A DNA stretch of 25,704 nt, from assembly GCA_964525635.1 (NCBI GenBank), contig CAZGJX010000058.1, positions 1-25,704 of the forward strand, written 5' to 3'. The stretch is from an uncultured archaeon (GTDB lineage Archaea; Asgardarchaeota; Lokiarchaeia; Sigyniarchaeales; SOKP01). Below are positions 2,398-17,088 of this stretch, in pieces (position 1 is the first letter of the stretch; each line of letters starts with the position of its first letter). Below the pieces are notes generated by a model. That model did no database searches and was not told the DNA's origin. It saw only the letters and a list, made by a program, of their open reading frames with translations. The translations under genes were made by a program, and so were the position numbers.

Positions 2398-2937
2398 ATG
2401 ATAAAAAATGAATTTAAAAAATCAATTAATAGAAAAAAAACCATTAAATATATCTTATTGAGTCTATCTTTAACTATCATAGTTTTCACAGGATTAAGCT
2501 CTAATGTCATGGCTGCTTCCTGGGGTTATCCTACAAGTGTTAAAATCTATAAGGGCTGGGATGGAGATGGATTTACAATAGATAGCTTTAGAGCCCCCTA
2601 TGATGACGATTACCTTGAAATTTCCGGTCTGTGTGGTGGTATTACATATGAAATTAACTTCAAGATCTATTTCCCCCAATTAGATAATTCAATTTGGAAT
2701 CCCAATAGAATACGAATATATTACCAGTTTCATGGATATGGTACTTTAGATATTATCTTAACTGGGAAGTTTGAAGGAGCAGATACAACAGTTGTATATA
2801 CGGTTTGGTGGACTAGTTATGGATTATATTCATTCAAATTTCCTGATGAAATGATTTTAGAAAGCGTACAATTTAAAAATCTAGAATATTGGTATCCTGG
2901 AGAAGTGTTAATTGATTATTTAATAGTATCATATTAA
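2398..2937 (+). CDS. Hypothetical secreted protein
   Basis: 179 aa; basic N-terminus, hydrophobic core and NVMA|AS signal-peptidase-like site; the mature part is aromatic/beta-rich; GGAG upstream. Confidence 0.75.
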   Translation: MIKNEFKKSINRKKTIKYILLSLSLTIIVFTGLSSNVMAASWGYPTSVKIYKGWDGDGFTIDSFRAPYDDDYLEISGLCGGITYEINFKIYFPQLDNSIWNPNRIRIYYQFHGYGTLDIILTGKFEGADTTVVYTVWWTSYGLYSFKFPDEMILESVQFKNLEYWYPGEVLIDYLIVSY

Positions 2938-3109
2938 ATAATTAAAGAAAATTCAGTTAATTGATATATCTTTAAAAATCTTTTTTTTTTACTAATAAAT
3001 TTTTGGAAAAAATGGAGAGATTAGTAATTACCAGATTAAATTCTCCATTTTCAAAATTTCGATTTTTCTTTATTATAACTCTTAAAATCAAAGTTTTTAT
3101 TGAGTGTTT

Positions 3110-3184
3110 TTTTTCACTTCATGAACATTTCATGAATAAAGATCGTGAAATAACCCTTTTACGATTAGAAGGTTATATCACGAT
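3110..3184 (+). repeat. Copy 3 of intergenic TTCATGAA repeat with an adjoining 14-bp inverted repeat
   Basis: tttttcac ttcatgaa cat ttcatgaa taaaga tcgtgaaa (3110-3150). atcgtgaaataacc (3142-3155) and ggttatatcacgat (3171-3184) are 13/14 reverse-complementary. Confidence 0.85.
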
Positions 3185-3211
3185 ATGATTAGGATATTAT
3201 ATTAAAAAAAA

Positions 3212-4306
3212 TTATACTTGTTTAAAATAACCAATAATCCGATTCTTATTCTGAAATTTGTTACTATCAAATATTAATCCTTTTAAACCAGTTTGATCGT
3301 GATACATCTTTTTCTCAAATCTAATTTTGATTTTTCCAATTTTTCCAGGAGAAATTTCATCTCCCTCAACAATTTTGAAAGGAGAAGTTTTTAAGTCAAT
3401 CAACGCAGTATATTGAATTCCATCTTTAGAACTAATCTTATTTCCTTTTGGGTTATAAAATTGATTAATATATGTATCTGCCCAGATCTCTTTTTCATAT
3501 TTAAAACTTCCCTGTGATACCAAAAGATTATCTCTACTTATTTCATTAGCATTTATATTTCCTTTTAATGATAGCCCAACTCTATCCCCTCTATAAGCAT
3601 CTTTAAAATCTCTATCATGTTTTTGAATACTTCTAATAATTAATTTCTTTTCAGGTCCCTCTGAGCCAATTAATTCAAGCATTTGTCCAGCATTTAAATC
3701 CCCTTTTTTTATTAATCCTAATATAACTGTACCAATACCTTTAACGGGAAAAGAATGGTCTATTAAAATTTTAATATAGTGAGAGTTCTCATTGTGTATT
3801 TTATTAAACTCAATGCCAATTTCTATTACTTTTTTCTTAAGTGTTTCATAATCATCTTTAGTTTTTAATAAAAATATTTCTGTATTCTTAATATCTGTTG
3901 TTAAAAGTATTTTCATTAGTTTTTCTTTTATTTCTACTAATTTCCAGCTATTTTTATCAGTAATATTTGTTATAACAATCAATGGCTCTGAATTATAGAG
4001 TTGATGAAATATATCTAATCCAATTAGAGATTCTCCAATTACAGAATTTAAACCAATTTCTAGATCAATAACTAGAATATGGATATCAGATAATTCTAAA
4101 GTTTGTAAGAATGGTTTTATCTTTTCAGGATAATTAACAGGAGCTAATGCACAAAATACTTGATTTAATTTTGAATCTAATCGATTATAAAATTGAATAT
4201 CTGATTTTGTACCTGGAGCACCAAAAGCTTGTCCGATTAGATTATTCTGCTCAAAATTTTCTCCAATTATTCCTATAACAAATGTATTTTCATATTGTTC
4301 ACTCAT
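3212..4306 (-). CDS. SelB-like / EF-Tu-like translation factor homologue with a degenerate G domain (aSelBL type)
   Basis: EF-Tu/SelB domain II motifs IDHSFPVKGIGTVILG, IRSIQKHD and GDRVGLSLKG. The P-loop position reads GIIGENFEQNNLIG (no GxxxxGKT) and the NKxD position reads TNITD. Confidence 0.85.
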   Translation of the reverse strand: MSEQYENTFVIGIIGENFEQNNLIGQAFGAPGTKSDIQFYNRLDSKLNQVFCALAPVNYPEKIKPFLQTLELSDIHILVIDLEIGLNSVIGESLIGLDIFHQLYNSEPLIVITNITDKNSWKLVEIKEKLMKILLTTDIKNTEIFLLKTKDDYETLKKKVIEIGIEFNKIHNENSHYIKILIDHSFPVKGIGTVILGLIKKGDLNAGQMLELIGSEGPEKKLIIRSIQKHDRDFKDAYRGDRVGLSLKGNINANEISRDNLLVSQGSFKYEKEIWADTYINQFYNPKGNKISSKDGIQYTALIDLKTSPFKIVEGDEISPGKIGKIKIRFEKKMYHDQTGLKGLIFDSNKFQNKNRIIGYFKQV

Positions 4307-4431
4307 TTAGAAATCAAATGCAGGATTTTTCATATATTTAATGGAAAATTAAAAACAAGAAAAAAATAAAAGATAAAATTATATTTTAAGTTATAGAATT
4401 AAGATTTTATTATAATGAGATTATTTTAAGA

Positions 4432-4697
4432 ATGGAAAAAGATTATATTATAATTCCTGCTTCAGAGAAGCACGTCAAAGGTATCCATAATGTATTTTTT
4501 CATCTTTTATAAAATATCATGATTTTTATACTCCTAAAGCATTTAAAGATACAACATTATCTGAGGAATGGGTTAAAGAAAAACTAAAAATAATGAAAAT
4601 ATATATCGCAATTACAGAAAAAGGAACAATTATTGGTACTATTGGTTGACAAAAAATAAGTAGAGAAGAAGGCCATATAAGATATACTCAAAGTTAG
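4432..4697 (+). pseudogene. GNAT-family acetyltransferase pseudogene (frameshifted, nonsense, truncated)
   Basis: MEKDYIIIPASEKHVKGIHNVF, then a frameshift in the T6 run at 4495-4500, then SSFIKYHDFYTPKAFKDTTLSEEWVKEKLKIMKIYIAITEKGTIIGTIG-TGA(4647-4649)-QKISREEGHIR. This matches the N-terminal half of a GNAT fold; the acetyl-CoA motif A is missing. Confidence 0.7.
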
Positions 4698-4954
4698 TGA
4701 TAAGACAACTTTTTTTATCACATATTTCTTAAGAAAATCATCCCATCTTTTTTTCTTATAATTCAAAAAATTAATCTGAAAACAATTTTATAATACTATT
4801 AATTTTTTTTTCTAATTTTTCCAAATTCGTTTATAAAATATTCAAAATAAATAATTAAATGAACTAGTCAAGAGGAAATTGTATTTTTTAAAAATATTTT
4901 TATATGAGATATTTTAAATTATTATTCACCAAAAGTCAGAAAAAAGGTGATTAT

Positions 4955-6013
4955 ATGTTTGAGAAATTAAAAACATATTTATATATGACAGGTACAGTTT
5001 TAAAACTTGGAGGTTCTTTAAAGAAAATAAGCCGTGATATATATAACTTTTATAAAGGTAATGTAATTAGTGTCTTAGGTGAAGAAGGTGAGGATTGGTT
5101 TAATTATCTTACCGCTCCAAGAACTATAGATGAGATTACTGAAAACTTTGGTTATACAGATAGTATATTTCTTCAAGACATCTTAGATATTTTAACCGAG
5201 GATAATATGGTTAATAAAAAAATGTCTAAATACCAAACTATAGGTGAAGTTAAGGGAAACGGGGCGATACCTCAAGTATTTAATGAATCTGCTGTCGATG
5301 TTTTAACTAGTTTTGCTAAAGCGATTCCAAGGCGATTAAAAGGGGATTATCCGAGTTTTTCTGAAGGTTTTGAATTATTTAATTGGGATGACACATTAAG
5401 CCTCAAGATGTACGAAATTCAAAGAAGATCATCTTTTATATTTTCCAAGGCTCTAAATTATAAAGGTAAATTACTTGATGTCGGTTGTGGAAATGGCTTC
5501 GGTACTACATTAATCTGGAGCTACTATGAAAAAAAGAAATGCTTTTATCCAGGAACCAAAATGGAAATCTTCGCTCTTGACCCTAATGAGGAATTCTTAG
5601 ATATTGCTAAAAACGAATTTGAACTGCGCTTAAAAACGCATTTGAATTATAGTAAAGACCAAATCGAATCATTACGCCCTTATTTTCCAAAAAAATTTGA
5701 ATTGGGCTCCGTTACGGATATGCCTTTCGAGGATAATACTTTTGATATCGTATATATCTCACAAGTTCTTCACTGGACAGATTCGCTGGCAGGATTAAAG
5801 GAGATAGTTAGAGTGACCAAACCAGGGGGTTTAATCTTCGGAAGTCAAGTACTTATACCTTTTGCAAATAAATATATAGACCTCCATATTAGAACAATAA
5901 AGGGTGCACAGGGGTTCTTTACTAAAAAAGAGTTCTTAGAATTCATTAATGAAGCGGGTGGAAAAGATATAAAAACCGCAACACCCGTAACATGCTTTAA
6001 GTTTACAAAATAA
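4955..6013 (+). CDS. Class I SAM-dependent methyltransferase with an N-terminal wHTH-like region
   Basis: Motif I LLDVGCGNG, ALDPNEEFL, MPFEDNTFDIVY..QVLHW, RVTKPGG. Start placed at ATG 4955 behind an AGGTGA SD (the ORF track starts at 4904). Confidence 0.9.
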   Translation: MFEKLKTYLYMTGTVLKLGGSLKKISRDIYNFYKGNVISVLGEEGEDWFNYLTAPRTIDEITENFGYTDSIFLQDILDILTEDNMVNKKMSKYQTIGEVKGNGAIPQVFNESAVDVLTSFAKAIPRRLKGDYPSFSEGFELFNWDDTLSLKMYEIQRRSSFIFSKALNYKGKLLDVGCGNGFGTTLIWSYYEKKKCFYPGTKMEIFALDPNEEFLDIAKNEFELRLKTHLNYSKDQIESLRPYFPKKFELGSVTDMPFEDNTFDIVYISQVLHWTDSLAGLKEIVRVTKPGGLIFGSQVLIPFANKYIDLHIRTIKGAQGFFTKKEFLEFINEAGGKDIKTATPVTCFKFTK

Positions 6014-6170
6014 CTCAAAGATTTAATTTGAGAAGGTTAATATTTCAGAATTTCAACACACCAGATATTAATTTACTTATTCTTTTTTTTTTTTATTATC
6101 TTGGGACTAATAACAACTATTATTTTTATACAAAATCCACACAATCAATTCATTTAGTTCAGTTCTTTAA

Positions 6171-7355
6171 TTATTCAAATAGTTTTCTTCTGTTGATAAA
6201 ATCATAAATTTCGATAAATTGTTCTAATTGACTTAAAATTCCTCTTTTGTTTAAAAAATCAATTAAACTCATCTCTTGGTTGAAAAATTCCTCTAAGATT
6301 TCTCTTTCTATCTTAAATGCTGAAGTTAATCGATCTATAATCCGAGGAAGTCTCTCTTTGTATTTTATTTGAATTTTTGAATATAATAAATCATCATCAA
6401 TTAATCTCTGAATTACAGGTATTTTATCAAGAGTAATTTCTTTTTCATTAAAATATTCATTAATAGTTAAAATTCTTGGACATTTAGAAATTAAATAATC
6501 TAAACTATGACTTTTTTGGGTTAATTTTTCCATCAACGGATTTACCCAATAAAGATTGTTATCATTTGTTAATTTATAACAAATTATATTTGAATTTAAA
6601 ACTCTCAATTGAAACTCTTGATCTGCTACTGAAATCTTTAGATATTTTTGTACTTCTGAATATACCTTTTTAGCCTCTTGGATTTTTTCATATAATAGAG
6701 AAGTTAATTGAATTGCATTTATTGAAGGAATACATACCATATCATAGATCCAATGGTCTGAAATATTAAAGATGATAAATAGATTAAAGATAGTATGTTC
6801 TTTTAAAGTTTCATGTGTTAATCCAGAATATCTATAAAATTGTTGAGTCGTACCCAGTTCTTTATTTGTATATTCCTCTAATTTTATTTTACTTGAACTT
6901 AATTGATCATAATATCTTCCAGTTTTATCTACAAAAACGTTATTAATATGTAACTCATTTTTAAAATAATGAGCAACTTTATAAAGTAAAAATTCTTTTC
7001 CAAAAAAAATATTACGCGAAATATTTTCAAGATATGAATTTTCATCATCAATTCGAAATCTAATTTTAGCATTACATAATTGACAATTAAAATTTGTTTC
7101 TTTTATTCCATCTATTAGTTCAAAATCAACTTTCTGATATCCACGTACCTTTAAATTATTATCTATATATAGTTGGAATTGATGATTACAGATTGAATCT
7201 TTTGGGATTGATATTGTTGTCAAACCTTTTGGTTTTAATATATCTCTTGGAATATGAATAAATTTACTTGCTTTACAAATTGGGCAAGCAATTATAACAT
7301 TCCCTATGTCATAATCTTCTTTATTTAGTAATATATTGTTATCACTCATCTTCAT
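6171..7355 (-). CDS. Hypothetical protein with two N-terminal putative Zn-binding modules
   Basis: CPIC...CNHQFQLYID...VRGYQ followed by a second module CQLC...H...HINNVFVD. No recognisable catalytic domain. Confidence 0.75.
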   Translation of the reverse strand: MKMSDNNILLNKEDYDIGNVIIACPICKASKFIHIPRDILKPKGLTTISIPKDSICNHQFQLYIDNNLKVRGYQKVDFELIDGIKETNFNCQLCNAKIRFRIDDENSYLENISRNIFFGKEFLLYKVAHYFKNELHINNVFVDKTGRYYDQLSSSKIKLEEYTNKELGTTQQFYRYSGLTHETLKEHTIFNLFIIFNISDHWIYDMVCIPSINAIQLTSLLYEKIQEAKKVYSEVQKYLKISVADQEFQLRVLNSNIICYKLTNDNNLYWVNPLMEKLTQKSHSLDYLISKCPRILTINEYFNEKEITLDKIPVIQRLIDDDLLYSKIQIKYKERLPRIIDRLTSAFKIEREILEEFFNQEMSLIDFLNKRGILSQLEQFIEIYDFINRRKLFE

Positions 7356-7604
7356 TCAATTTTTATGTATATTTTTATATTTAATTTTAAAATGTAATTG
7401 TGGAGTTATTAATGAAAAGAATTCCATTACTCCTAAATTGATCTCTAAAATTATCTATTACTCATATTTAAAAATGATAATATCAAAGGTCTTTGTCTTT
7501 GTTAAATAAAATTTAACTATAAATCTAATAAAAATATACATTTTTATACTTTTCCTCAATTATCATATGAAAAAAAAGAAAATTATATATATTACGAAAT
7601 TTTA

Positions 7605-9161
7605 TTATAGAGTGTTTTCGATTGAATTAAACATCAATTTTAATTTTTCATAGATTTCCATTCTATAATTCTCACCTATCCTAAATGACAGAAGAGATAT
7701 CTTTTTTTTTTCTATAAAGTCGTTAATATTAAAATCTCTCATGAAATTCGACCAATCAGTATTTTCATCAATTTGAAATCCTATTAATACAACTTTTTTC
7801 TCTTTAATCTGTTCTAAAACAGTTAATATTGCCTTTTTCCATTTTGAATCTAAATCTTTTCTATTTCGTGCATCAAATAAACAAAATACAGCATCAGAAT
7901 CATCAATTTCTATATTTTCTAAAAAATAATTTTTTAGAATTAATCCATTTTTATATTCATAGATGAGGTAATTAGATTCTTCCTTAGTATAAGCTAAATT
8001 TTGATTACCAGCAATTTTTGCTAAAATTTGTAATCCTGGACTCCATATTTTATTCTCAGTTATGAATGAAATTGTTAGTTTCTTTTCCAAAGTAAGTATT
8101 AATTTCAAAATCTCATAAATTTCATTCTTTGATATTTTTTCCTCAAATTCTTTATTTTTGAGAATGTAATGATATGAAATTAATCTAAAAGCATCAATAA
8201 TATTATCACCAGATAAAGCACTTGTTTCTATGTAAGAAATAGTTGAAATACCTTTAGTTGATAATTTTTTTGTAATTTCTACTCCTTCTTGATATTCAAC
8301 TTTTCTTGATTCCTTTAAATCTAATTTATTACCTATAACAACAACTGAAAGATGATCTGTATCTATAAAGTCATTTAATTCATTATACCAATTAATGACA
8401 TTATCATATGTTTCTCTATTAGTTAAATCAAATACGATAAAAACAGCTTGGCTATTTTGATAATAAGTTTTTCGAACTTTTTCATAATCTTTTTGTGCTC
8501 CCAGATCCCATATAGCTATATCTAGTTCATTACCAAAAAAAGTCATATTATGAGATACGATATTTAGACCAATTGTTGCTCGATAATCATGAGTAAATTT
8601 ATTTTCCGTAAAACGTCGTACAATGGATGTTTTACCTACTCCAGCATCGCCAATAATTATGAATTTATATCTATAATTCTTACCTAAATCTGGTCTTGAT
8701 TCGTATATTTGGTTTTTCAATATTTCCTTATTTTTTATATCAAAATCAAATTTAGGAATTGATAATTCAATAATATCTCCTTCATTCATATATAAAATTT
8801 GGGCTATTTTTTCAGCTAAAAAATAAGCATATGCATTAACTTTATCGATTGATGCATATGATTTAGTAATTATACATAAGGCAATATCTTTATTAATAGA
8901 AATAAATATTATTGTATTATTTTTATTTTCATATACAGCAGTACCAAATTTGTTAAATTCAAACTCTTCAATTATTACAGCTAAAATATGTTTCACAAGA
9001 GACGAATAATCAACAGTTGCATCATCTTTAATCTCTTCCCTTTTTTCTTCAGAGATTATTTGATTATTTCTACTGTATAATATTATTTGTTCAGTATCAT
9101 CATTAATCTTAAAGAAATTTTCACATAATTCTTTAAAAAATAAACTGAGATTTTTTGACAA
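7605..9161 (-). CDS. Roadblock/longin-like domain + Rab-like small GTPase + C-terminal degenerate GTPase-like domain (paralog A)
   Basis: G1 GDAGVGKTS, G2 YRATIG, G3 WDLGAQ, G4 GNKLD, G5 ETSAL. N-terminus homologous to the roadblock of 15532-17088 but diverged. TTG start. Confidence 0.9.
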   Translation of the reverse strand: MSKNLSLFFKELCENFFKINDDTEQIILYSRNNQIISEEKREEIKDDATVDYSSLVKHILAVIIEEFEFNKFGTAVYENKNNTIIFISINKDIALCIITKSYASIDKVNAYAYFLAEKIAQILYMNEGDIIELSIPKFDFDIKNKEILKNQIYESRPDLGKNYRYKFIIIGDAGVGKTSIVRRFTENKFTHDYRATIGLNIVSHNMTFFGNELDIAIWDLGAQKDYEKVRKTYYQNSQAVFIVFDLTNRETYDNVINWYNELNDFIDTDHLSVVVIGNKLDLKESRKVEYQEGVEITKKLSTKGISTISYIETSALSGDNIIDAFRLISYHYILKNKEFEEKISKNEIYEILKLILTLEKKLTISFITENKIWSPGLQILAKIAGNQNLAYTKEESNYLIYEYKNGLILKNYFLENIEIDDSDAVFCLFDARNRKDLDSKWKKAILTVLEQIKEKKVVLIGFQIDENTDWSNFMRDFNINDFIEKKKISLLSFRIGENYRMEIYEKLKLMFNSIENTL

Positions 9162-10865: not shown

Positions 10866-11093
10866 TTATATTTAAAGAAAAAAGTGCGACAAGTAAGTCT
10901 GATGTCCGAATACAGGACTTGAAAAAGAGTATGTAAAAAGGTAATTTTCAAAAACTGGTATCAAGATGACTGATAATGGCTATCCAAACATGCATCATTA
11001 GTAATGATGATGTGTGAAGCTCTGGAGACAATGTACTTTCTGCACTTAGCTATAAAGTGGTCTAGAAAGACTAGCCAAGGAACCTATGGGAAA

Positions 11094-13320
11094 ATGCGGC
11101 GGAGAAAGCTTTCATATGGAATCCGAAAGGCCGTGGAGTTAGAACATGAGTGGCAGTTGTGCGGACTCATACCCAAAAGGTATGGGATCTAAAGCATGCA
11201 CAGCAATGTACCGATTCTGCTAACCCTTCAAGCAGATAGGGCTAGCCAAATGAACCTAAGGTAAACGAAAGTGAACCTGTGCTTAAAGCCTCGTGAAGGC
11301 TAGGCTGTGAAAAAGGGTTGATACGCAGCCGAACCAAAAGAAGGTAATGACGCTGAGAACATGTAGTTTTCCCTTACATGTTTATCTAACTAATGGCGTC
11401 CGGGGTAGAGCAGGTACCTAAGGGTTCAGTAATTATCCATATGATAGAACTCTGTAAAGTCTCCACGCGCAAAGGTGTAGGGAGATAGAGATGAGGCGGA
11501 AGCGAAAGACTCCGGTAATATGGAGGATAGGGTATATACCCAACCAAAAGGTGGCTGACTGCCTCTGAACTCAACGGAAATGAAATTATAGGAATATTTC
11601 TAATGGAAGGAGGACGTGAGACAAAATGAAAGGTTTTGTACGGACCAACCAGCAGGTGCAAGTTGAATGGGACCGAGTGAATTGGACCCAGGTCAAGCAT
11701 CAGGTCGAAATATTACAACAAAAGATTTTCCGAGATACTCAGAAAGGTGACTTTAGAGCTGTGAATCAGTTCCAAAAGTTACTGGTAAAGTCGCTTTCTG
11801 CGAGGTTATGGGTTGTATATCTCACTACTGAGGTTAACTCCGGGAGAAGTACACCCGGTATGGATGGTTGCCTTTACAAGACAACCAAAAAGAAATTGGA
11901 GCTCGTGGAAAGTTTAAAACTCAAGAAATATAAACCTAATCCAGTGAAAATTGTATGGATCCCGAAACCAAGTGGAGGTAAAAGGAAACTGGGAATTCCA
12001 ACAATTCGAGACCGCGCCATGCAGGCATTAATCTTGCTGGCAATGGATCCGGAATGGGAAGCTAAGTTTGAACCCCATAGCTTTGGGTTTCGACCTGGTA
12101 GATCTGCAATTGATGCGGTTTATCATATCTGGACTACAATAAGGTCTTATAAGGGACGCAAACCTCATCCAGGATGGGTTTTTGATGCCGATATTTCAAA
12201 CTGCTTTGATAATATTGATCATGAAGCTCTATTGACAAAGCTCAATGGAAGTTCATTTAAAAAGATAATTAGAGCATGGTTGAAATGTGGAGCGATTAGT
12301 GGGATTGGCTTTGAAAAGACAGAAAAGGGTACTCCTCAAGGCGGTGTAATTAGCCCTCTTTTGGCAAACATTGCCTTGGATGGTCTTGAGCGACAGTTCG
12401 GGATATATACTCGAACGGGTAATTACAAAAAGCCATCTGTACGAGGAGGCCAGGATAAGAATGTAGCATTTTTTCGATATGCTGATGACTTTATTATCCT
12501 TGCACCATCAAGGGAAGTTATTGTAAATTATATAATCCCTAAGGTGAAAGACTTTCTCTTTAAAGTAGGTCTAAGTCTTAATGAGGGAAAGACTCGTATA
12601 GTAAATGTATCTGACGGATTTAAATTTCTAGGATTTCATTTTAGAAGATTTTACCGTCGAGATGGTACTATTAAAGAGTCGATTTACTCCCCAAGTCGGG
12701 AAAGACTGGATCGCTTCATAAGAAATTTGAAGGTATATTTAAAACTCAATTGGAATGTGGACGTAAAGGACATAATTAAAGGTCTAAATAGGCGCATTAG
12801 AGGTTTTTGCAATTATTTTAGATGGAGTAATGCTCATAAAGCATTTTCCTATTTATCCTATAGACTTTGGGAATTGATGTGGTCATGGGCTAAGAAACGG
12901 CATCCTAGAAAAAGGGGTCGAAAATGGATTCGGGACCACTATTGGATGACGATTGGTAATATTAATTGGGTGTTCTCTTATCAAGGAGTTCATCTGATAG
13001 TACCATATAATTTAACAGTTCAATGGTGGAAGCGACCTAAGGTCAGGATATATGCGAGTCCATACGACCCAAAAGCAATAGAATACTGGCGAATTCGGCA
13101 ACAAAGAGCATGGATGAATAGAGTTTAGTTTAGTGAATTTATTGACTTCTCTCCTATAGTTGGTGGATTGGTGACATGAAGCTCACGGGAGGTATCCGAG
13201 AGGATCCCTCAAAGGAGACATGGTGACATGTTACTGAGTACTTGGGGACTGAGCCCCGTGCGATGAAAGTCGCACGCGGGGTTCTGATGAACAGGGGAAG
13301 TGATACTTCCCCTGATTCTT
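11094..13320 (+). mobile_element. Inner group II intron (IIB, CL1-like) nested in domain I of the outer intron
   Basis: 5' ATGCG. DI stems gcggag 11099-11104 / ctctgt 11450-11455 and tcatatgga 11112-11120 / tccatatga 11436-11444. alpha agttaga 11137-11143 / alpha' tctaact 11385-11391. EBS1 tttccc 11368-11373 / IBS1 gggaaa 11088-11093. J2/3 AGA 11489-11491. Canonical DV gagccccgtgcgatgaaagtcgcacgcggggttc 13251-13284. DVI with bulged A 13315. The 3' end is uncertain by 1 nt. Confidence 0.9.
11626..13128 (+). CDS. ltrA: Group II intron reverse transcriptase/maturase of the inner intron (RT0-7 + X, no HNH endonuclease)
   Basis: TPGMDG, IPKPSGGKRKLGIPTIRDRAMQ, SFGFRPGRS, DADISNCFDNIDH, GTPQGGVISPLLANIAL, RYADDF, FLGF, X-domain LN..IRGFCNYF. 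Ends shortly after SPYDP..EYW. Confidence 0.97.
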   Translation: MKGFVRTNQQVQVEWDRVNWTQVKHQVEILQQKIFRDTQKGDFRAVNQFQKLLVKSLSARLWVVYLTTEVNSGRSTPGMDGCLYKTTKKKLELVESLKLKKYKPNPVKIVWIPKPSGGKRKLGIPTIRDRAMQALILLAMDPEWEAKFEPHSFGFRPGRSAIDAVYHIWTTIRSYKGRKPHPGWVFDADISNCFDNIDHEALLTKLNGSSFKKIIRAWLKCGAISGIGFEKTEKGTPQGGVISPLLANIALDGLERQFGIYTRTGNYKKPSVRGGQDKNVAFFRYADDFIILAPSREVIVNYIIPKVKDFLFKVGLSLNEGKTRIVNVSDGFKFLGFHFRRFYRRDGTIKESIYSPSRERLDRFIRNLKVYLKLNWNVDVKDIIKGLNRRIRGFCNYFRWSNAHKAFSYLSYRLWELMWSWAKKRHPRKRGRKWIRDHYWMTIGNINWVFSYQGVHLIVPYNLTVQWWKRPKVRIYASPYDPKAIEYWRIRQQRAWMNRV

Positions 13321-13740
13321 GCGACAGTGAAGATGCGATAAACCTCGTTATTAAAAATCGGCGAAATATAGCTGATACGCCGAGACCAAAATGGTGAGTT
13401 GCCGGGTAGGAATGGTTTTTTTTCATTCCTTTGTCATCCATTGCGCAACCGGGGGAAAGCATCTCCCTAAGGGTTCTGTTGAACGTCGGATATTGGGAAC
13501 TTGGTAAACCCAACAAACCCCATACACGCAGGTGGAATGGTATCCCGACCGTGAGGAAGGGGGATGGTTTAGTGGGTAGAGGATGCTGGAAGAAGCGAAT
13601 GCCATGCTGTAATGGCATGGATAGGGCTGTAGTAACGCGCGAACTACAGGGATACCCCGCCCGAAAGGGTGCTGACTTCCTAAGCAGGTCTCAACGGAAG
13701 AAAAGTATTGAAAAATCTTAACCGGAGGTGAAGTTAGACG

Positions 13741-15240
13741 ATGTGTGAAAGCATTGAACAGAACAAGGGACATGTGGTGGAGTGGGATGATATCCAATGG
13801 GATAAAGCCCGCCGACATGTAAGACGGCTTCAAGAACGGATCTTTCGAGCAACCCGTGAGAAGGACTTTGCGAGGGTGAAAAACCTTCAAAACCTCCTTG
13901 TCAGATCACGTTCTGCACGACTTTTGGCGGTTAAAAGAGTCACGCAGGAAAATAAAGGCAAAAACACGCCGGGAATTGACGGAAAGATTTACACTACTTC
14001 GAATCAACGAGCTGAATTGGTAAATGACATCTGTCAAACCAATATTTTCAGTTATAAATGTAAATCGCTCAGGAGAGTATACATTCCAAAGAATCGCGGA
14101 GACAAGCGTCCTTTAGGCATTCCAACGGTCAAGGATCGAGCCATGCAGATGCTCGTGAAATTGGCATTGGAACCTGAATGGGAGGCTCGGTTTGAATCGC
14201 ATTCACAAGGTTTCAGACCGGGACGCAGGTGCATGGATGCAATTTGGCAAATCTGGAATTCCATTCGAATCTCAGGGGTTCAACAGAAGAGTGAATGGAT
14301 TTTAGATGCGGACATTTCAGGGTGTTTTGATAATATTAATCATGATGCATTGCTTAAAAGAATTCCCGTGTTTCGGGAAACGGTGAGAAGATGGCTTGAA
14401 TCGGGAATAATTGAGTTTGGAAAATACTTCCAAACCAAATCAGGCACGCCACAGGGCGGAATTATAAGTCCCTTGCTTGCTAACATTGCCTTAGATGGAA
14501 TGGAAAGGCTCTTTGGGGCGGAGAACTCCAAGGGGAGCTATACAACACCATCAAATAGAAGGGGTGAGAACTATAAGCTTAATTTAATTCGATATGCTGA
14601 CGATTTTGTGGTGACAGCACCATCAAGAGAGAGAATCGTTGATTACGTGCTTCCTAAGCTTCGAGCCTTTCTTAAGGAAAGAGGTATGAAGTTGAATGAA
14701 GCTAAAACCAAGATTATCCATCGAAATGAAGGTTTTTACTTTCTGGGATTCACGATCCGACAGTTTCACAACCGAGCGAGAAGTGTGTGCTTGGCAAAAC
14801 CGTCTAAAAAGGCGATTAAAAGCCATCTACAAGGCATTAAAATGGTAATTTCAGGAAATAAGCAGGTAAAAGCAGATGAACTCATCTCCTATTTAAATCC
14901 GATTATTAGGGGTTGGGCAAACTATTACGTATACAGTAGCGCCAAGGAAACGTTTAATTACATTGACTATCGGATTTGGAAAATGTTGTGGCAGTGGTGC
15001 TTACGACGTCATCCGAGAAAAGGAAAATTATGGATTCGGAGGTGTTATTTCATGAATATTGGAGATAAGAAATGGATTTTCGGTGAAAGAAAAGAGAATG
15101 TATTGTTATTTACCCGCTCTTTTCGGGCAGGAAGACGGTATACACCTGTTAAAGGATATAATAGTCCTTTTGATGCGAATTTACATGAGTATTGGAGTAA
15201 AAGACATGGTAAAGCTTGGCGTGAGACAACGCCGATGTGA
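13741..15240 (+). CDS. ltrA: Group II intron reverse transcriptase/maturase of the outer intron (no HNH endonuclease)
   Basis: TPGIDG, IPKNRGDKRPLGIPTVKDRAMQ, GFRPGR, DADISGCFDNINH, GTPQGGIISPLLANIAL, RYADDF, LNPIIRGWANYY. GGAGGTGA SD at 13724-13731. Confidence 0.97.
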   Translation: MCESIEQNKGHVVEWDDIQWDKARRHVRRLQERIFRATREKDFARVKNLQNLLVRSRSARLLAVKRVTQENKGKNTPGIDGKIYTTSNQRAELVNDICQTNIFSYKCKSLRRVYIPKNRGDKRPLGIPTVKDRAMQMLVKLALEPEWEARFESHSQGFRPGRRCMDAIWQIWNSIRISGVQQKSEWILDADISGCFDNINHDALLKRIPVFRETVRRWLESGIIEFGKYFQTKSGTPQGGIISPLLANIALDGMERLFGAENSKGSYTTPSNRRGENYKLNLIRYADDFVVTAPSRERIVDYVLPKLRAFLKERGMKLNEAKTKIIHRNEGFYFLGFTIRQFHNRARSVCLAKPSKKAIKSHLQGIKMVISGNKQVKADELISYLNPIIRGWANYYVYSSAKETFNYIDYRIWKMLWQWCLRRHPRKGKLWIRRCYFMNIGDKKWIFGERKENVLLFTRSFRAGRRYTPVKGYNSPFDANLHEYWSKRHGKAWRETTPM

Positions 15241-15531
15241 TCATTTCCAATAGAGAAGTCCGAGGTGACTTGGGCGGTCTCGGAGGGATTGTGAGAAGCA
15301 TGAACTAATGGAACACGGTGACGTGTACGGGTTCTTGGAGCGCGAGCCCTGTGCAGGGAAACTTGCACGCGGGGGTCCTAAAAGAGGAAGAGGACGGTAA
15401 CATCATCTCCTTATTTAACGAAAAAAGAAAAAAGAAATTGAATATTTTGAATGGATTTTTAATTCTTAAAATTTAATTCCTAATAGAAGCAATTATTTAC
15501 TTTAAGTACTTTATTTATTTATTTTTCTGGT

Positions 15532-17088
15532 TTATAAAGTATTTTCAATAGTATTAAACATAACTTTCAATTGGTCGAATATTTCTATTCTATACCTTTT
15601 TCCAATTTTTACAAATAGAAGTGATAAAGTTTTCTTCTTTAAATACTTATTAATATCAAACTCATACATAATATTGGACCAACTGGTATTTTCATCAACT
15701 CGAATTCCTATCAATATAACTTTATTTGCTTCAATAGATTCAATTAGTTGTTTTGTTATTAATTTCCATTTACTTTCTATGTTTTGTTTATTTCTAGCGT
15801 CAAAGATACAGAAAACCGCATCTGAATTAGTAACTTCTATGTGATCAAAGACATTATATTTTATTACTAAACCATTCTCATATTCATATAAACGTTGATT
15901 CTTTGTTTCTTCTATAGAAATTCTTTTAAATTCTGAAGCAATTTCTGCTAAAATTTGCAATCCAAGACTCCAATAATAGTATTCTGTGATAAATGAAATA
16001 GTCAATTGCTTTTTTAAAGAAATTATTGAATTTATTTTAGACCTAATATCATCTTTTAATAGTTCTTCCTCAAATTCTTTATCTTTAATGATATGATTAT
16101 AGGAAATTAAGTGAAAAGCTTCTTTAATATTTTCTCCAGTTAATGCGCTCGTTTCTATATAAGATAAGTTTAATAATCCCTTTTCATATAAAAGATTTGT
16201 AATTTCAATTCCTTTTTCATAATCTATTACCCTCTGGTTTTTTAAATCAGATTTATTACCTACTATCACAACTGATAACTCTTCCTTCTTGACGAAATCA
16301 ACTATTTCATTATACCATTCAATGATATTATTAAAAGATTTCATATTTGTTAGGTCAAACACAATAAAAACAGCTTGTGCACCACGATAATATGTTTTCC
16401 GAAATGGTTTAAAATATTTTTGTGCTCCAATATCCCAAATATATAACTCAATTTCGTTATTTGTAAAATTAATTGAGTGTGTTAATAAATTTAGACCTAG
16501 TGTTGCTCTATAATCGTGAGAAAATCTATTTTCTGTAAATCGCCGAACAATAGAAGTCTTACCTACTTCATTATCTCCAATAATAATGAACTTAAAACGA
16601 TATTTTTTGCCATGTTCTAATTTAGTTTGATATATTTGATTGTTCAATCTATCTATCTCTCTTGTTTCATATTCGAATTTTGGAATTACCAATTGGACAA
16701 TCTCATCTTCTTCAGCTGTTAAAAATTGAGCTGTTTTTTCCGCTAAAAAATAAGCATAAGAAGTTACTTTATCGATTGAGGCCATTGGATTAATTACTAA
16801 ACTCATAGTAATATCTTTAATTACTGATATAAACAATAATCTGTGATCTTCAGTATTGAAACTCGCCGTTCCAAATTGTTGGAAGGCAAATTCATCTCTT
16901 AATCTTTCTAGAACGGGATTAACTATTGATGTAAGAACTGAAATGATTTCAATATCAATATTTTCTCTTTTTTCACCAAATATTATTAAACCATCTACAT
17001 CAGAAACAATAATTGCTTCTACATCCCTATTAATTTTGAAAAAATTTTCACATAATTCTTTAAATATTAATTTAAGATTTTTAGGCAA
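15532..17088 (-). CDS. Roadblock/LC7 domain + Rab-like small GTPase + C-terminal degenerate GTPase-like domain (paralog B)
   Basis: Roadblock signature VEAIIVSDVDGLII; G1 GDNEVGKTS, G2 YRATLG, G3 WDIGAQ, G4 GNKSD, G5 ETSAL. GGAGGT SD with a TTG start. Confidence 0.92.
   Translation of the reverse strand: MPKNLKLIFKELCENFFKINRDVEAIIVSDVDGLIIFGEKRENIDIEIISVLTSIVNPVLERLRDEFAFQQFGTASFNTEDHRLLFISVIKDITMSLVINPMASIDKVTSYAYFLAEKTAQFLTAEEDEIVQLVIPKFEYETREIDRLNNQIYQTKLEHGKKYRFKFIIIGDNEVGKTSIVRRFTENRFSHDYRATLGLNLLTHSINFTNNEIELYIWDIGAQKYFKPFRKTYYRGAQAVFIVFDLTNMKSFNNIIEWYNEIVDFVKKEELSVVIVGNKSDLKNQRVIDYEKGIEITNLLYEKGLLNLSYIETSALTGENIKEAFHLISYNHIIKDKEFEEELLKDDIRSKINSIISLKKQLTISFITEYYYWSLGLQILAEIASEFKRISIEETKNQRLYEYENGLVIKYNVFDHIEVTNSDAVFCIFDARNKQNIESKWKLITKQLIESIEANKVILIGIRVDENTSWSNIMYEFDINKYLKKKTLSLLFVKIGKRYRIEIFDQLKVMFNTIENTL

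What the first reader, a model, noticed from the sequence alone, without database searches (positions are those of the whole stretch)
10884..15419. Group II twintron: an RT-encoding intron inserted into the catalytic scaffold (DI zeta/kappa region) of another, in a probable Asgard archaeon
The two RT genes look tandem, but the RNA pairings show nesting. The segment after 13321 supplies the DI closing strand, alpha', EBS1 and EBS2 that pair with sequence at 10871-10970. Removing 11094-13320 restores ...gaacctatgggaaa|gcgacagtgaa..., homologous to the inner intron's own gaacctaaggtaaacgaaagtgaa. The insertion point is just 3' of the tatgg half (11085-11089) of the 11-nt tetraloop receptor, whose partner cctaag is at 13466-13471. 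The outer ribozyme should therefore fold only after the inner intron has spliced out (inference). Twintrons are known in some archaea and cyanobacteria, but a complete two-IEP example in an Asgard-like genome bears on the ancestry of spliceosomal introns.
Basis: partly seen in the sequence, partly recalled or inferred. Interest (0 to 1): 0.85.

Follow-up and report, generated by a model that had tools for sequence, protein, structure and literature searches.

The report
Asgard twintron with G-ended inner intron
One mobile self-splicing intron sits inside the catalytic scaffold of another in an Asgard archaeon (a rare but known layout), and the inner one belongs to an apparently undescribed Asgard lineage whose introns all end in G, as our own spliced introns do, instead of the C or U expected for this class.

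Summary
Nesting confirmed, inner 3' boundary corrected. In a Promethearchaeota (Loki) genome, an outer group IIB intron (10884-11093 + 13322-15419) carries an inner one at 11094-13321, one base longer than proposed. A natural empty-site contig skips exactly these 2228 nt (AT..TG), uninterrupted homologues agree, and independent assemblies span the junctions. Both RT genes are intact (YADD, no endonuclease). A two-RT twintron nested in domain I is already known (Trichodesmium), as are archaeal nests.

The new part is the inner intron's lineage. All 16 members with a recovered 3' end finish in G (UG 14, AG 2; two are GU...AG) instead of A-pyrimidine. The G is intron sequence: host reading frames restore only without it, and EBS3 pairs with the base after it (13/16). 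The gamma base is an invariant A, so the Watson-Crick gamma-gamma' pair that normally sets the 3' splice site cannot form. I found no paper describing this.

Splicing and its order are inferred; there is no RNA data. Window 13396-14340 is a patch from another allele. The scan noted Asgard nests before, and odd termini on this stretch with the end one base short.

The parts
10871..10883 (+). Outer 5' exon end: IBS2 (10871-10875, weak, A-U only) and IBS1 (A6, 10878-10883); a T-tract on the strand of the flanking genes
   Evidence: Sequence; EBS1 complement; same TTTAAA-N-A-tract target in about 10 relatives
10884..11093 (+). Outer intron, 5' segment: GTGCG start, 5' strand of DI basal helix, alpha loop (10964-10970), tatgg half of the zeta receptor (11085-11089), GAAA of the kappa junction (11090-11093)
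   Evidence: Rfam RF02012 at 10958-11097; 80-86% identical and colinear with uninterrupted homologues; fold of reconstructed DI
11081..11093 (+). Target site of the inner intron: IBS2 (11081-11085, 4 of 5 pairs) and IBS1 gggaaa (11088-11093), overlapping the outer zeta receptor and kappa
   Evidence: EBS1/EBS2 positions from the family alignment; motif conserved in uninterrupted IIB introns
11094..13321 (+). Inner group II intron, 2228 nt, starts ATGCG, ends ATTCTTG
   Evidence: Empty-site joint; homologues; family termini
11297..11301 (+). Inner EBS2
   Evidence: Column that pairs with the 5' exon in relatives; 4/5 pairs here
11367..11373 (+). Inner delta (11367) and EBS1 tttccc (11368-11373), 6/6 with IBS1
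11408..11408 (+). Inner EBS3 (G), pairs with C13322, the base after the terminal G
   Evidence: Covariation across the lineage, 12/15 in the automated count (permutation p 2e-4), 13/16 with L137 added by eye
11489..11491 (+). Inner J2/3: gamma A11489, then G, A; gamma cannot form a Watson-Crick pair with terminal G13321
   Evidence: A at this position in all 14 members the pattern scored; register by homology to the outer J2/3 (inference)
11626..13128 (+). Inner intron-encoded protein, 500 aa: RVT_N, RVT_1 (YADD), GIIM; no HNH
13251..13284 (+). Inner DV, AGC triad, AC bulge, GAAA loop
   Evidence: Rfam 51.2 bits; 98.5% of cells paired, 7 pairs with two-sided change
13289..13321 (+). Inner DVI with bulged A13315 (7 nt from the end) and terminal G13321
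13322..15419 (+). Outer intron, 3' segment: kappa extension, EBS2 (13351-55), EBS1 (13417-22), alpha' (13433-38), EBS3 (13457), cctaag (13466-71), DI closing strand (13486-13503), DII, J2/3 (gamma G13581), DIII, DIV, DV (15344-15377), DVI (bulged A15413), AC end
13396..14340 (+). Patch from another allele or copy of the outer intron (151 differences from independent assemblies; changes EBS3 from C to A)
13741..15240 (+). Outer intron-encoded protein, 499 aa: RVT_N, RVT_1 (YADD), GIIM; no HNH
   Evidence: 80-84% identical to Promethearchaeota proteins
15420..15420 (+). Outer IBS3 (G); matched by EBS3 C in the L135/L136 allele, mismatched by the window's A13457

Best explanation
An endonuclease-less group IIB intron first inserted into an intergenic A-tract, antisense to the flanking Ras-family and 2TM genes. 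A second IIB intron from a different lineage then reverse-spliced into the outer intron's DNA, because its EBS1, EBS2 and EBS3 match the conserved zeta-receptor/kappa motif of domain I (shown by pairing and by the empty site). In a transcript the inner intron should fold and leave first, rejoining gggaaa|cgacag and restoring the kappa junction and DV docking site, after which the outer intron can splice (inferred). The inner lineage cuts after a terminal G. That G travels with the mobile unit (shown at DNA level). Since retrohoming inserts the excised RNA end for end, the lineage's RNA must end in G (follows from the established mechanism). Its 3' splice site is then set by DVI spacing (branch A at -7) and EBS3-IBS3, with a non-Watson-Crick A.G contact, or a contact to the first base, in place of the gamma-gamma' pair (inferred).
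For: Empty-site contig in another study joins 11093 to 13322. L005-L007 colinear without the insert. Junctions spanned by Logan and JGI assemblies. Whole element absent between the same genes in three congeners. Reconstructed outer DI folds with its basal, alpha-bearing and receptor helices closed. 16 of 16 lineage members end in G, against 6 of 116 comparator introns by the same automated register, several of which are miscalls. Host frames restored only with G inside the intron: L297 methyltransferase and L131 (antisense), L302 (sense). Second insertion in the same genome gives the same A...G unit (C36). EBS3 complements the base after G in 13/16 and G itself in 1/15. Lineage is a clade, 100/99 support. 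Relaxation of both partners of the usual first/penultimate pair: first base A in 5 of 15, penultimate U in 14 of 16.
Against: No RNA evidence of transcription or splicing. The element is antisense to both neighbours, so its promoter is unknown. Gamma A could pair with the U before the G in 14 of 16 members, so a second site one base upstream is chemically plausible. Mutating gamma-gamma' or putting U at the penultimate position impairs the second step in RmInt1 (PMC4238363), so splicing may be inefficient. Members are related, so the permutation p overstates independence. Part of the outer intron in this window is a mosaic.
Confidence: 0.8

Rival explanations
1. The inner intron ends at U13320 and the G is the first base of the 3' exon, giving a normal A-U gamma-gamma' pair with the branch A at -6. 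As a description of the DNA unit this is refuted; it survives only as a possible alternative or major forward-splicing site that leaves one extra G in the host RNA.
For: Gamma is A in all members scored, and the base before G is U in 14 of 16. B.a.I2 of Bacillus anthracis uses two 3' sites with different gamma-gamma' and EBS3-IBS3 sets (PMC9294222).
Against: Empty sites lack the G. Three host frames break if G stays. EBS3 tracks the base after G, not G. Two members have A before the G, which gamma A cannot pair.
Confidence: 0.12
2. The inner lineage is mobile but a poor splicer in the second step, so the outer ribozyme is effectively silenced and the twintron is a parasite-in-parasite parked in a harmless intergenic site, rather than a working two-step cascade. 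Compatible with the boundaries above.
For: Loss of Watson-Crick gamma-gamma' harms exon ligation in tested introns (PMC4238363, PMC6224600, PMC13717195). The site is intergenic and antisense, so nothing selects for efficient splicing. Of the protein genes hit by the lineage, two of three are hit antisense.
Against: Retrohoming needs a fully excised RNA, and the lineage has spread to at least 16 distinct sites with about 70 protein clusters. One member sits sense-strand in an open reading frame (L302). DV/DVI and both RT genes are intact.
Confidence: 0.25
3. Two complete introns in tandem, the second starting at the TTGCGAC-like sequence at 13319.
For: The junction reads like a 5' end, and tandem insertion is known for groEL introns (PMC12584367).
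Against: The segment after 13321 is colinear with the middle of domain I in uninterrupted homologues, whose 5' halves match 10884-11093; it lacks alpha, the DI 5' strand and half the zeta receptor; the empty allele joins the two halves.
Confidence: 0.01
4. The nesting is an assembly artefact.
For: The window is a metagenome-assembled contig and 13396-14340 is a mosaic of two alleles.
Against: L135 runs through both inner junctions and L136 through the 3' junction and outer end, identical to the window there; run X2 contigs also cross both. EBS1/EBS3 of the inner intron match this exact site, which an assembler cannot create.
Confidence: 0.02

Closest known systems
Trichodesmium erythraeum twintron Tr.e.I7/Tr.e.I8 (PMC4649490)
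   Same: Inner IIB intron inside domain I of a host IIB intron, both with their own protein; inner splices first (shown there).
   Different: There the insertion is next to theta and interrupts a protein gene; here it is in the zeta/kappa core, intergenic, archaeal, and the inner intron has A...G ends.
Nested group II introns of Methanosarcina acetivorans (as summarised in PMC4424553)
   Same: Archaeal, intergenic, repeated homing of introns into other introns; same pattern in contig C36 of this genome and in L086, L298, L452.
   Different: Different host phylum and protein clade (Methanosarcinales proteins fall in a separate 100/100 clade); from my own knowledge those insertions are mainly in the RT gene, here in the ribozyme core.
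Group II introns with deviant 3' ends: RmInt1 (ends CC; PMC4238363), B.a.I2 (two sites; PMC9294222), class B 3' extensions (PMC4424553)
   Same: Departure from the A-pyrimidine end.
   Different: All keep a Watson-Crick gamma-gamma' pair with a terminal pyrimidine; this lineage has an invariant terminal purine opposite an invariant A.
Asgard group II introns incl. a 'separate CL type' (PMC9887622; bioRxiv 2024.12.10.627823)
   Same: RT genes of CL type in Asgard genomes; both clades here fall outside the sampled CL1/CL2-like groups.
   Different: Those studies were protein-centred; the preprint has no mention of boundaries, twintrons or nesting. Whether their 'separate CL type' is this clade was not tested.
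Spliceosomal GU-AG introns
   Same: Terminal G; two members are literally GU...AG; the branch context YUGAY resembles the branch-point consensus (own knowledge); no gamma-gamma' pair.
   Different: These are cis-acting ribozymes with EBS/IBS pairing; most end UG; found only in one Loki order in 400 Asgard genomes, which by current views is not the lineage closest to eukaryotes (own knowledge). Convergence is more likely than descent.

Membership tests
Group IIB intron (outer) | GUGYG start, AY end, DV with AGC triad, DVI bulged A | tested here: met
   10884 GTGCG; 15418-19 AC; Rfam 40.3 bits; A15413 at -7
Group IIB intron (outer) | EBS1-IBS1 and gamma-gamma' Watson-Crick pairs | tested here: met
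   U6 with A6; G13581 with C15419
Group IIB intron (outer) | EBS3-IBS3 pair | tested here: inconclusive
   Window A13457 vs G15420 mismatched; the allele in L135, L136 and runs X1, X2, X8 has C, which pairs
Group IIB intron (inner) | DV with AGC triad, DVI with bulged A, six-domain layout, RT gene in DIV | tested here: met
Group IIB intron (inner) | EBS1, EBS2, EBS3 pairing with exons | tested here: met
   6/6, 4/5 and G-C
Group IIB intron (inner) | 5' GUGYG | tested here: not met
   ATGCG; A1 in 5 of 15 lineage members. A1 is rare but known (PMC12584367)
Group IIB intron (inner) | 3' AY end with Watson-Crick gamma-gamma' | tested here: not met
   Ends UG; gamma A opposite G; lineage-wide
Group IIB intron (both) | Splicing through a lariat; retrohoming | not testable with these tools
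   No RNA run holds the stretch; mobility inferred from filled and empty sites
Twintron | One complete intron inserted within another | tested here: met
Twintron | Inner intron must splice before the outer | not testable with these tools
   Inferred from the split zeta/kappa element, which nucleates DI folding in ai5gamma (PMC3575829)
IEP class CL1 or CL2 | Protein groups within the CL1 or CL2 clades | tested here: inconclusive
   Both carry RVT_N and are CL-like, but both clades fall outside the 100/99 clade holding cyanobacterial, proteobacterial and Methanosarcinales relatives; no curated class labels or outgroup were available
Asgard archaeon (Promethearchaeota) | Host genome placement | tested here: met
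   G232, listed as same family, is the contig titled Promethearchaeota archaeon Loki_b31 (matching coordinates)

The most novel reading that the evidence does not exclude
The G-ended lineage is an active group II ribozyme that has replaced the gamma-gamma' pair by recognising a terminal G through the first intron base or a non-Watson-Crick partner, as the spliceosome does for GU-AG introns: a natural, independently evolved RNA-only model of the GU-AY to GU-AG transition, in Asgard archaea.
Probability: 0.3. Interest if true: 0.9.

Novelty: new variant of a known kind. Interest (0 to 1): 0.72.

Why it matters
Reviews contrast group II ends (GU-AY) with spliceosomal ends (GU-AG) (PMC4424553), and structures treat the gamma-gamma' pair as critical for docking the 3' splice site (PMC6224600). 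A whole mobile lineage that ends in G without that pair shows the rule is not absolute. It gives short, cloneable ribozymes, two with GU...AG ends, in which one can ask directly how a terminal G is recognised without spliceosomal proteins. The twintron supplies a built-in control: an AC-ended IIB intron from the same host, at the same locus. It does not show that spliceosomal introns descend from this lineage.

Tried and rejected
No RNA holder listed for the stretch; this is no evidence either way. No contig joining 10883 to 15420 in four runs laid; absence of the whole element was shown in congeners instead. An end at 13322 (GC, branch A at -8, as Rfam aligned it) was rejected: C13322 is present in the empty site and varies with EBS3. 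Alignment-based locus scans were swamped by distant CL introns. Apparent AG ends in a Bacillota clade: one is an AT end with a 2-nt extension, one (L068) looks like a real sporadic G. A sister relation between the inner and outer clades had 93 SH-aLRT in the quick tree but was unresolved in the careful tree, so it is not claimed. My first pairing of ctctg with DII was wrong; it closes DI (covariation). My tree label 'classB' for the pXO1 protein came from memory and is not relied on. Sigma-70 promoter scan is not informative for an archaeon. Simon et al. 2008 and Wilkinson et al. 2017 were not held; pO157 accession not held. Eight paper searches found no report of a G-ended group II lineage, but subscription journals are largely missing.
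Full report
OBSERVATION. The window holds two intact RT genes on the + strand, 11626-13128 (500 aa) and 13741-15240 (499 aa), 43% identical, each with RVT_N, RVT_1 (YADD) and GIIM and no HNH domain. Rfam finds DV/DVI at 13249-13322 and 15342-15419 and a D1 fragment at 10958-11097. The element has 42-44% GC against 25% in the flanks. It lies between a Ras-family gene and a 2TM gene, both on the - strand, so it is intergenic and antisense. Three congeners keep this gene order with no room for the element. The host shares a family with the genome titled Promethearchaeota archaeon Loki_b31, so the Asgard guess holds.

NESTING. Three Loki introns at 80% nucleotide identity align colinearly to 10869-11093 and then to 13322 onward with no insert. 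A contig from a different marsh study joins 11093 to 13322, skipping 2228 nt with ends AT..TG and no sliding ambiguity. The rejoined domain I folds with its basal helix (10890-94/13499-503), the next helix (10902-09/13486-93) and the receptor helix (11080-89/13466-76) closed; alpha (10965-70) complements 13433-38 and the EBS1 U-loop complements the A6 before 10884. Independent Logan and JGI assemblies cross the junctions unchanged. Tandem and misassembly readings are rejected. The insertion falls four bases after the tatgg half of the zeta receptor, in what by homology is the kappa junction, the element that nucleates domain I folding in ai5gamma (PMC3575829). The inner EBS1, EBS2 and EBS3 match this site (6/6, 4/5, G-C), and the motif is conserved in about a dozen uninterrupted introns among the fetched loci, so it is a standing homing target. 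That the outer intron can splice only after the inner leaves is an inference; it was demonstrated for the Trichodesmium twintron (PMC4649490).

BOUNDARY CORRECTION. The empty sites show that G13321 belongs to the insert. A second, ORF-less relative in contig C36 of the same genome gives the same ATGCG...CTTG unit when compared with paralogous empty sites.

THE G-ENDED LINEAGE. About 70 protein clusters are 52-76% identical to the inner protein. In 400 genomes of the phylum, hits at that level occur only in the host's order. Sixteen distinct insertions with a readable 3' end all finish branch-A, Y, T, C or T, W, W, G: UG in 14, AG in 2. A decayed paralog with stops (L114) has T. DV and DVI pair and covary normally, with the bulged A seven bases from the end. 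Among 116 comparator introns scored by the same automated register, 109 end in a pyrimidine and 6 in G, several of them miscalls. Three independent tests place the splice site after the G. (1) Empty sites, above. (2) Host reading frames in L297 (a split N6/N4 methyltransferase), L131 and L302 are restored only if G is removed with the intron. (3) The EBS3 base, identified by covariation and confirmed in the outer family, complements the base after G in 12 of 15 (permutation p 2e-4; 13 of 16 with L137) and G itself in 1 of 15. The proteins form a clade with 100/99 support.

MECHANISM. Canonically the last base pairs Watson-Crick with gamma in J2/3, and the penultimate A contacts G1 (PMC6224600, PMC4238363). 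The outer intron obeys this (G13581 with C15419). In the lineage, counting back from DIII, gamma is A in all 14 members scored, facing an invariant G; J2/3 is also one base shorter than in the outer clade. The penultimate base is mostly U and the first base is A in 5 of 15, so both partners of the second contact have relaxed together. Most likely the site is set by DVI spacing and EBS3-IBS3, with a non-canonical contact to the terminal G. Because reverse splicing inserts the excised RNA end for end, the mobile RNA must end in G; whether forward splicing also uses the U|G site, where an A-U gamma pair is possible in 14 of 16, is open. Whether G is read by base 1, as in spliceosomal introns, is a hypothesis. 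Two members are GU...AG. I read the likeness as convergence: the clade is confined here to one Loki order and most members end UG.

CAVEAT ON THIS WINDOW. L135, L136 and runs X1, X2 and X8 differ from the window at up to 151 sites, all within 13396-14340, and are identical elsewhere. Their allele has EBS3 C, which fits G15420; the window's A does not. The window's version matches contigs of the empty-allele type in X22 and a minor contig in X1. So this stretch is a patch from another copy, by recombination or by assembly. Both versions encode a full 499-aa protein. The junctions are unaffected.

COMPARISON. Domain-I nesting with two proteins is known in Trichodesmium, multi-intron nests in Methanosarcina (PMC4424553), and Asgard group II introns from protein surveys (PMC9887622; bioRxiv 2024.12.10.627823). 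Nesting recurs in this lineage and its hosts at different sites: DII (C36), the DV-DVI junction (L086), early DI (L298), and, reciprocally, an AC-ended intron inside a G-lineage host ten bases from the same kappa site (L452). Four of about 17 insertions are in other introns, so the lineage is not an intron specialist. Described deviant 3' ends (RmInt1, B.a.I2, class B extensions) keep a terminal pyrimidine. Eight searches of the held library found no G-ended lineage; coverage of subscription journals is poor.

VERDICT. The twintron is real and is a new member of a known kind. The inner intron's fixed terminal G makes the finding a new variant of a known kind. Interest 0.72.

Noticed in passing
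L001 (G000 contig C36, about 2400-8200, - strand): An RT-encoding host intron holds an ORF-less AC-ended intron in domain I and an ORF-less G-ended intron in domain II, the latter interrupted by an IS4-like element with terminal inverted repeats.
   Followed up: partly
window 13396-14340: Mosaic patch: 151 differences from independent assemblies, including a compensated 1-nt deletion/insertion at 14271-14280 and an EBS3 change.
   Followed up: yes
window 10868-10883 and L005-L007, L089, L092, L095, L139-L143: The outer intron's clade consistently targets TWTAAA-N-A-tract sites, which are T-tracts on the other strand (possible terminators, entered antisense) or TATA-like boxes.
   Followed up: partly
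L088, L137, L307: A sub-branch of the G-ended lineage has EBS1 GGAAAW and inserts after T-tracts; L307 is ORF-less.
   Followed up: no
L298 (6450 nt): Triple nest: a G-lineage intron inside the 5' part of one intron, itself interrupted right after DV by another RT-encoding intron.
   Followed up: partly
L086 (G137 C18): G-ended intron inserted between DV and DVI of a host intron remnant.
   Followed up: partly
L302/L138, L299, L452: Atypical DV bulges (GA, CT); L302 and the first intron of L452 also have C in place of the J2/3 triplex G, suggesting a co-varied catalytic triplex in GC-rich hosts.
   Followed up: no
L101, L102 (G146, G149): Open frames of 824 and 893 aa around an IEP-like RT on a very long branch; possible fusion or domesticated maturase in the host's family.
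   Followed up: no
window 7605-9161 and 15532-17088: Two paralogous 518-aa proteins (53% identical) with a central Ras-family GTPase domain flank a 2TM gene and a PadR regulator; the order is conserved in congeners.
   Followed up: no
L068: A single Syntrophomonas intron of another clade appears to end in AG where its relatives end in AT; 5' part missing.
   Followed up: partly
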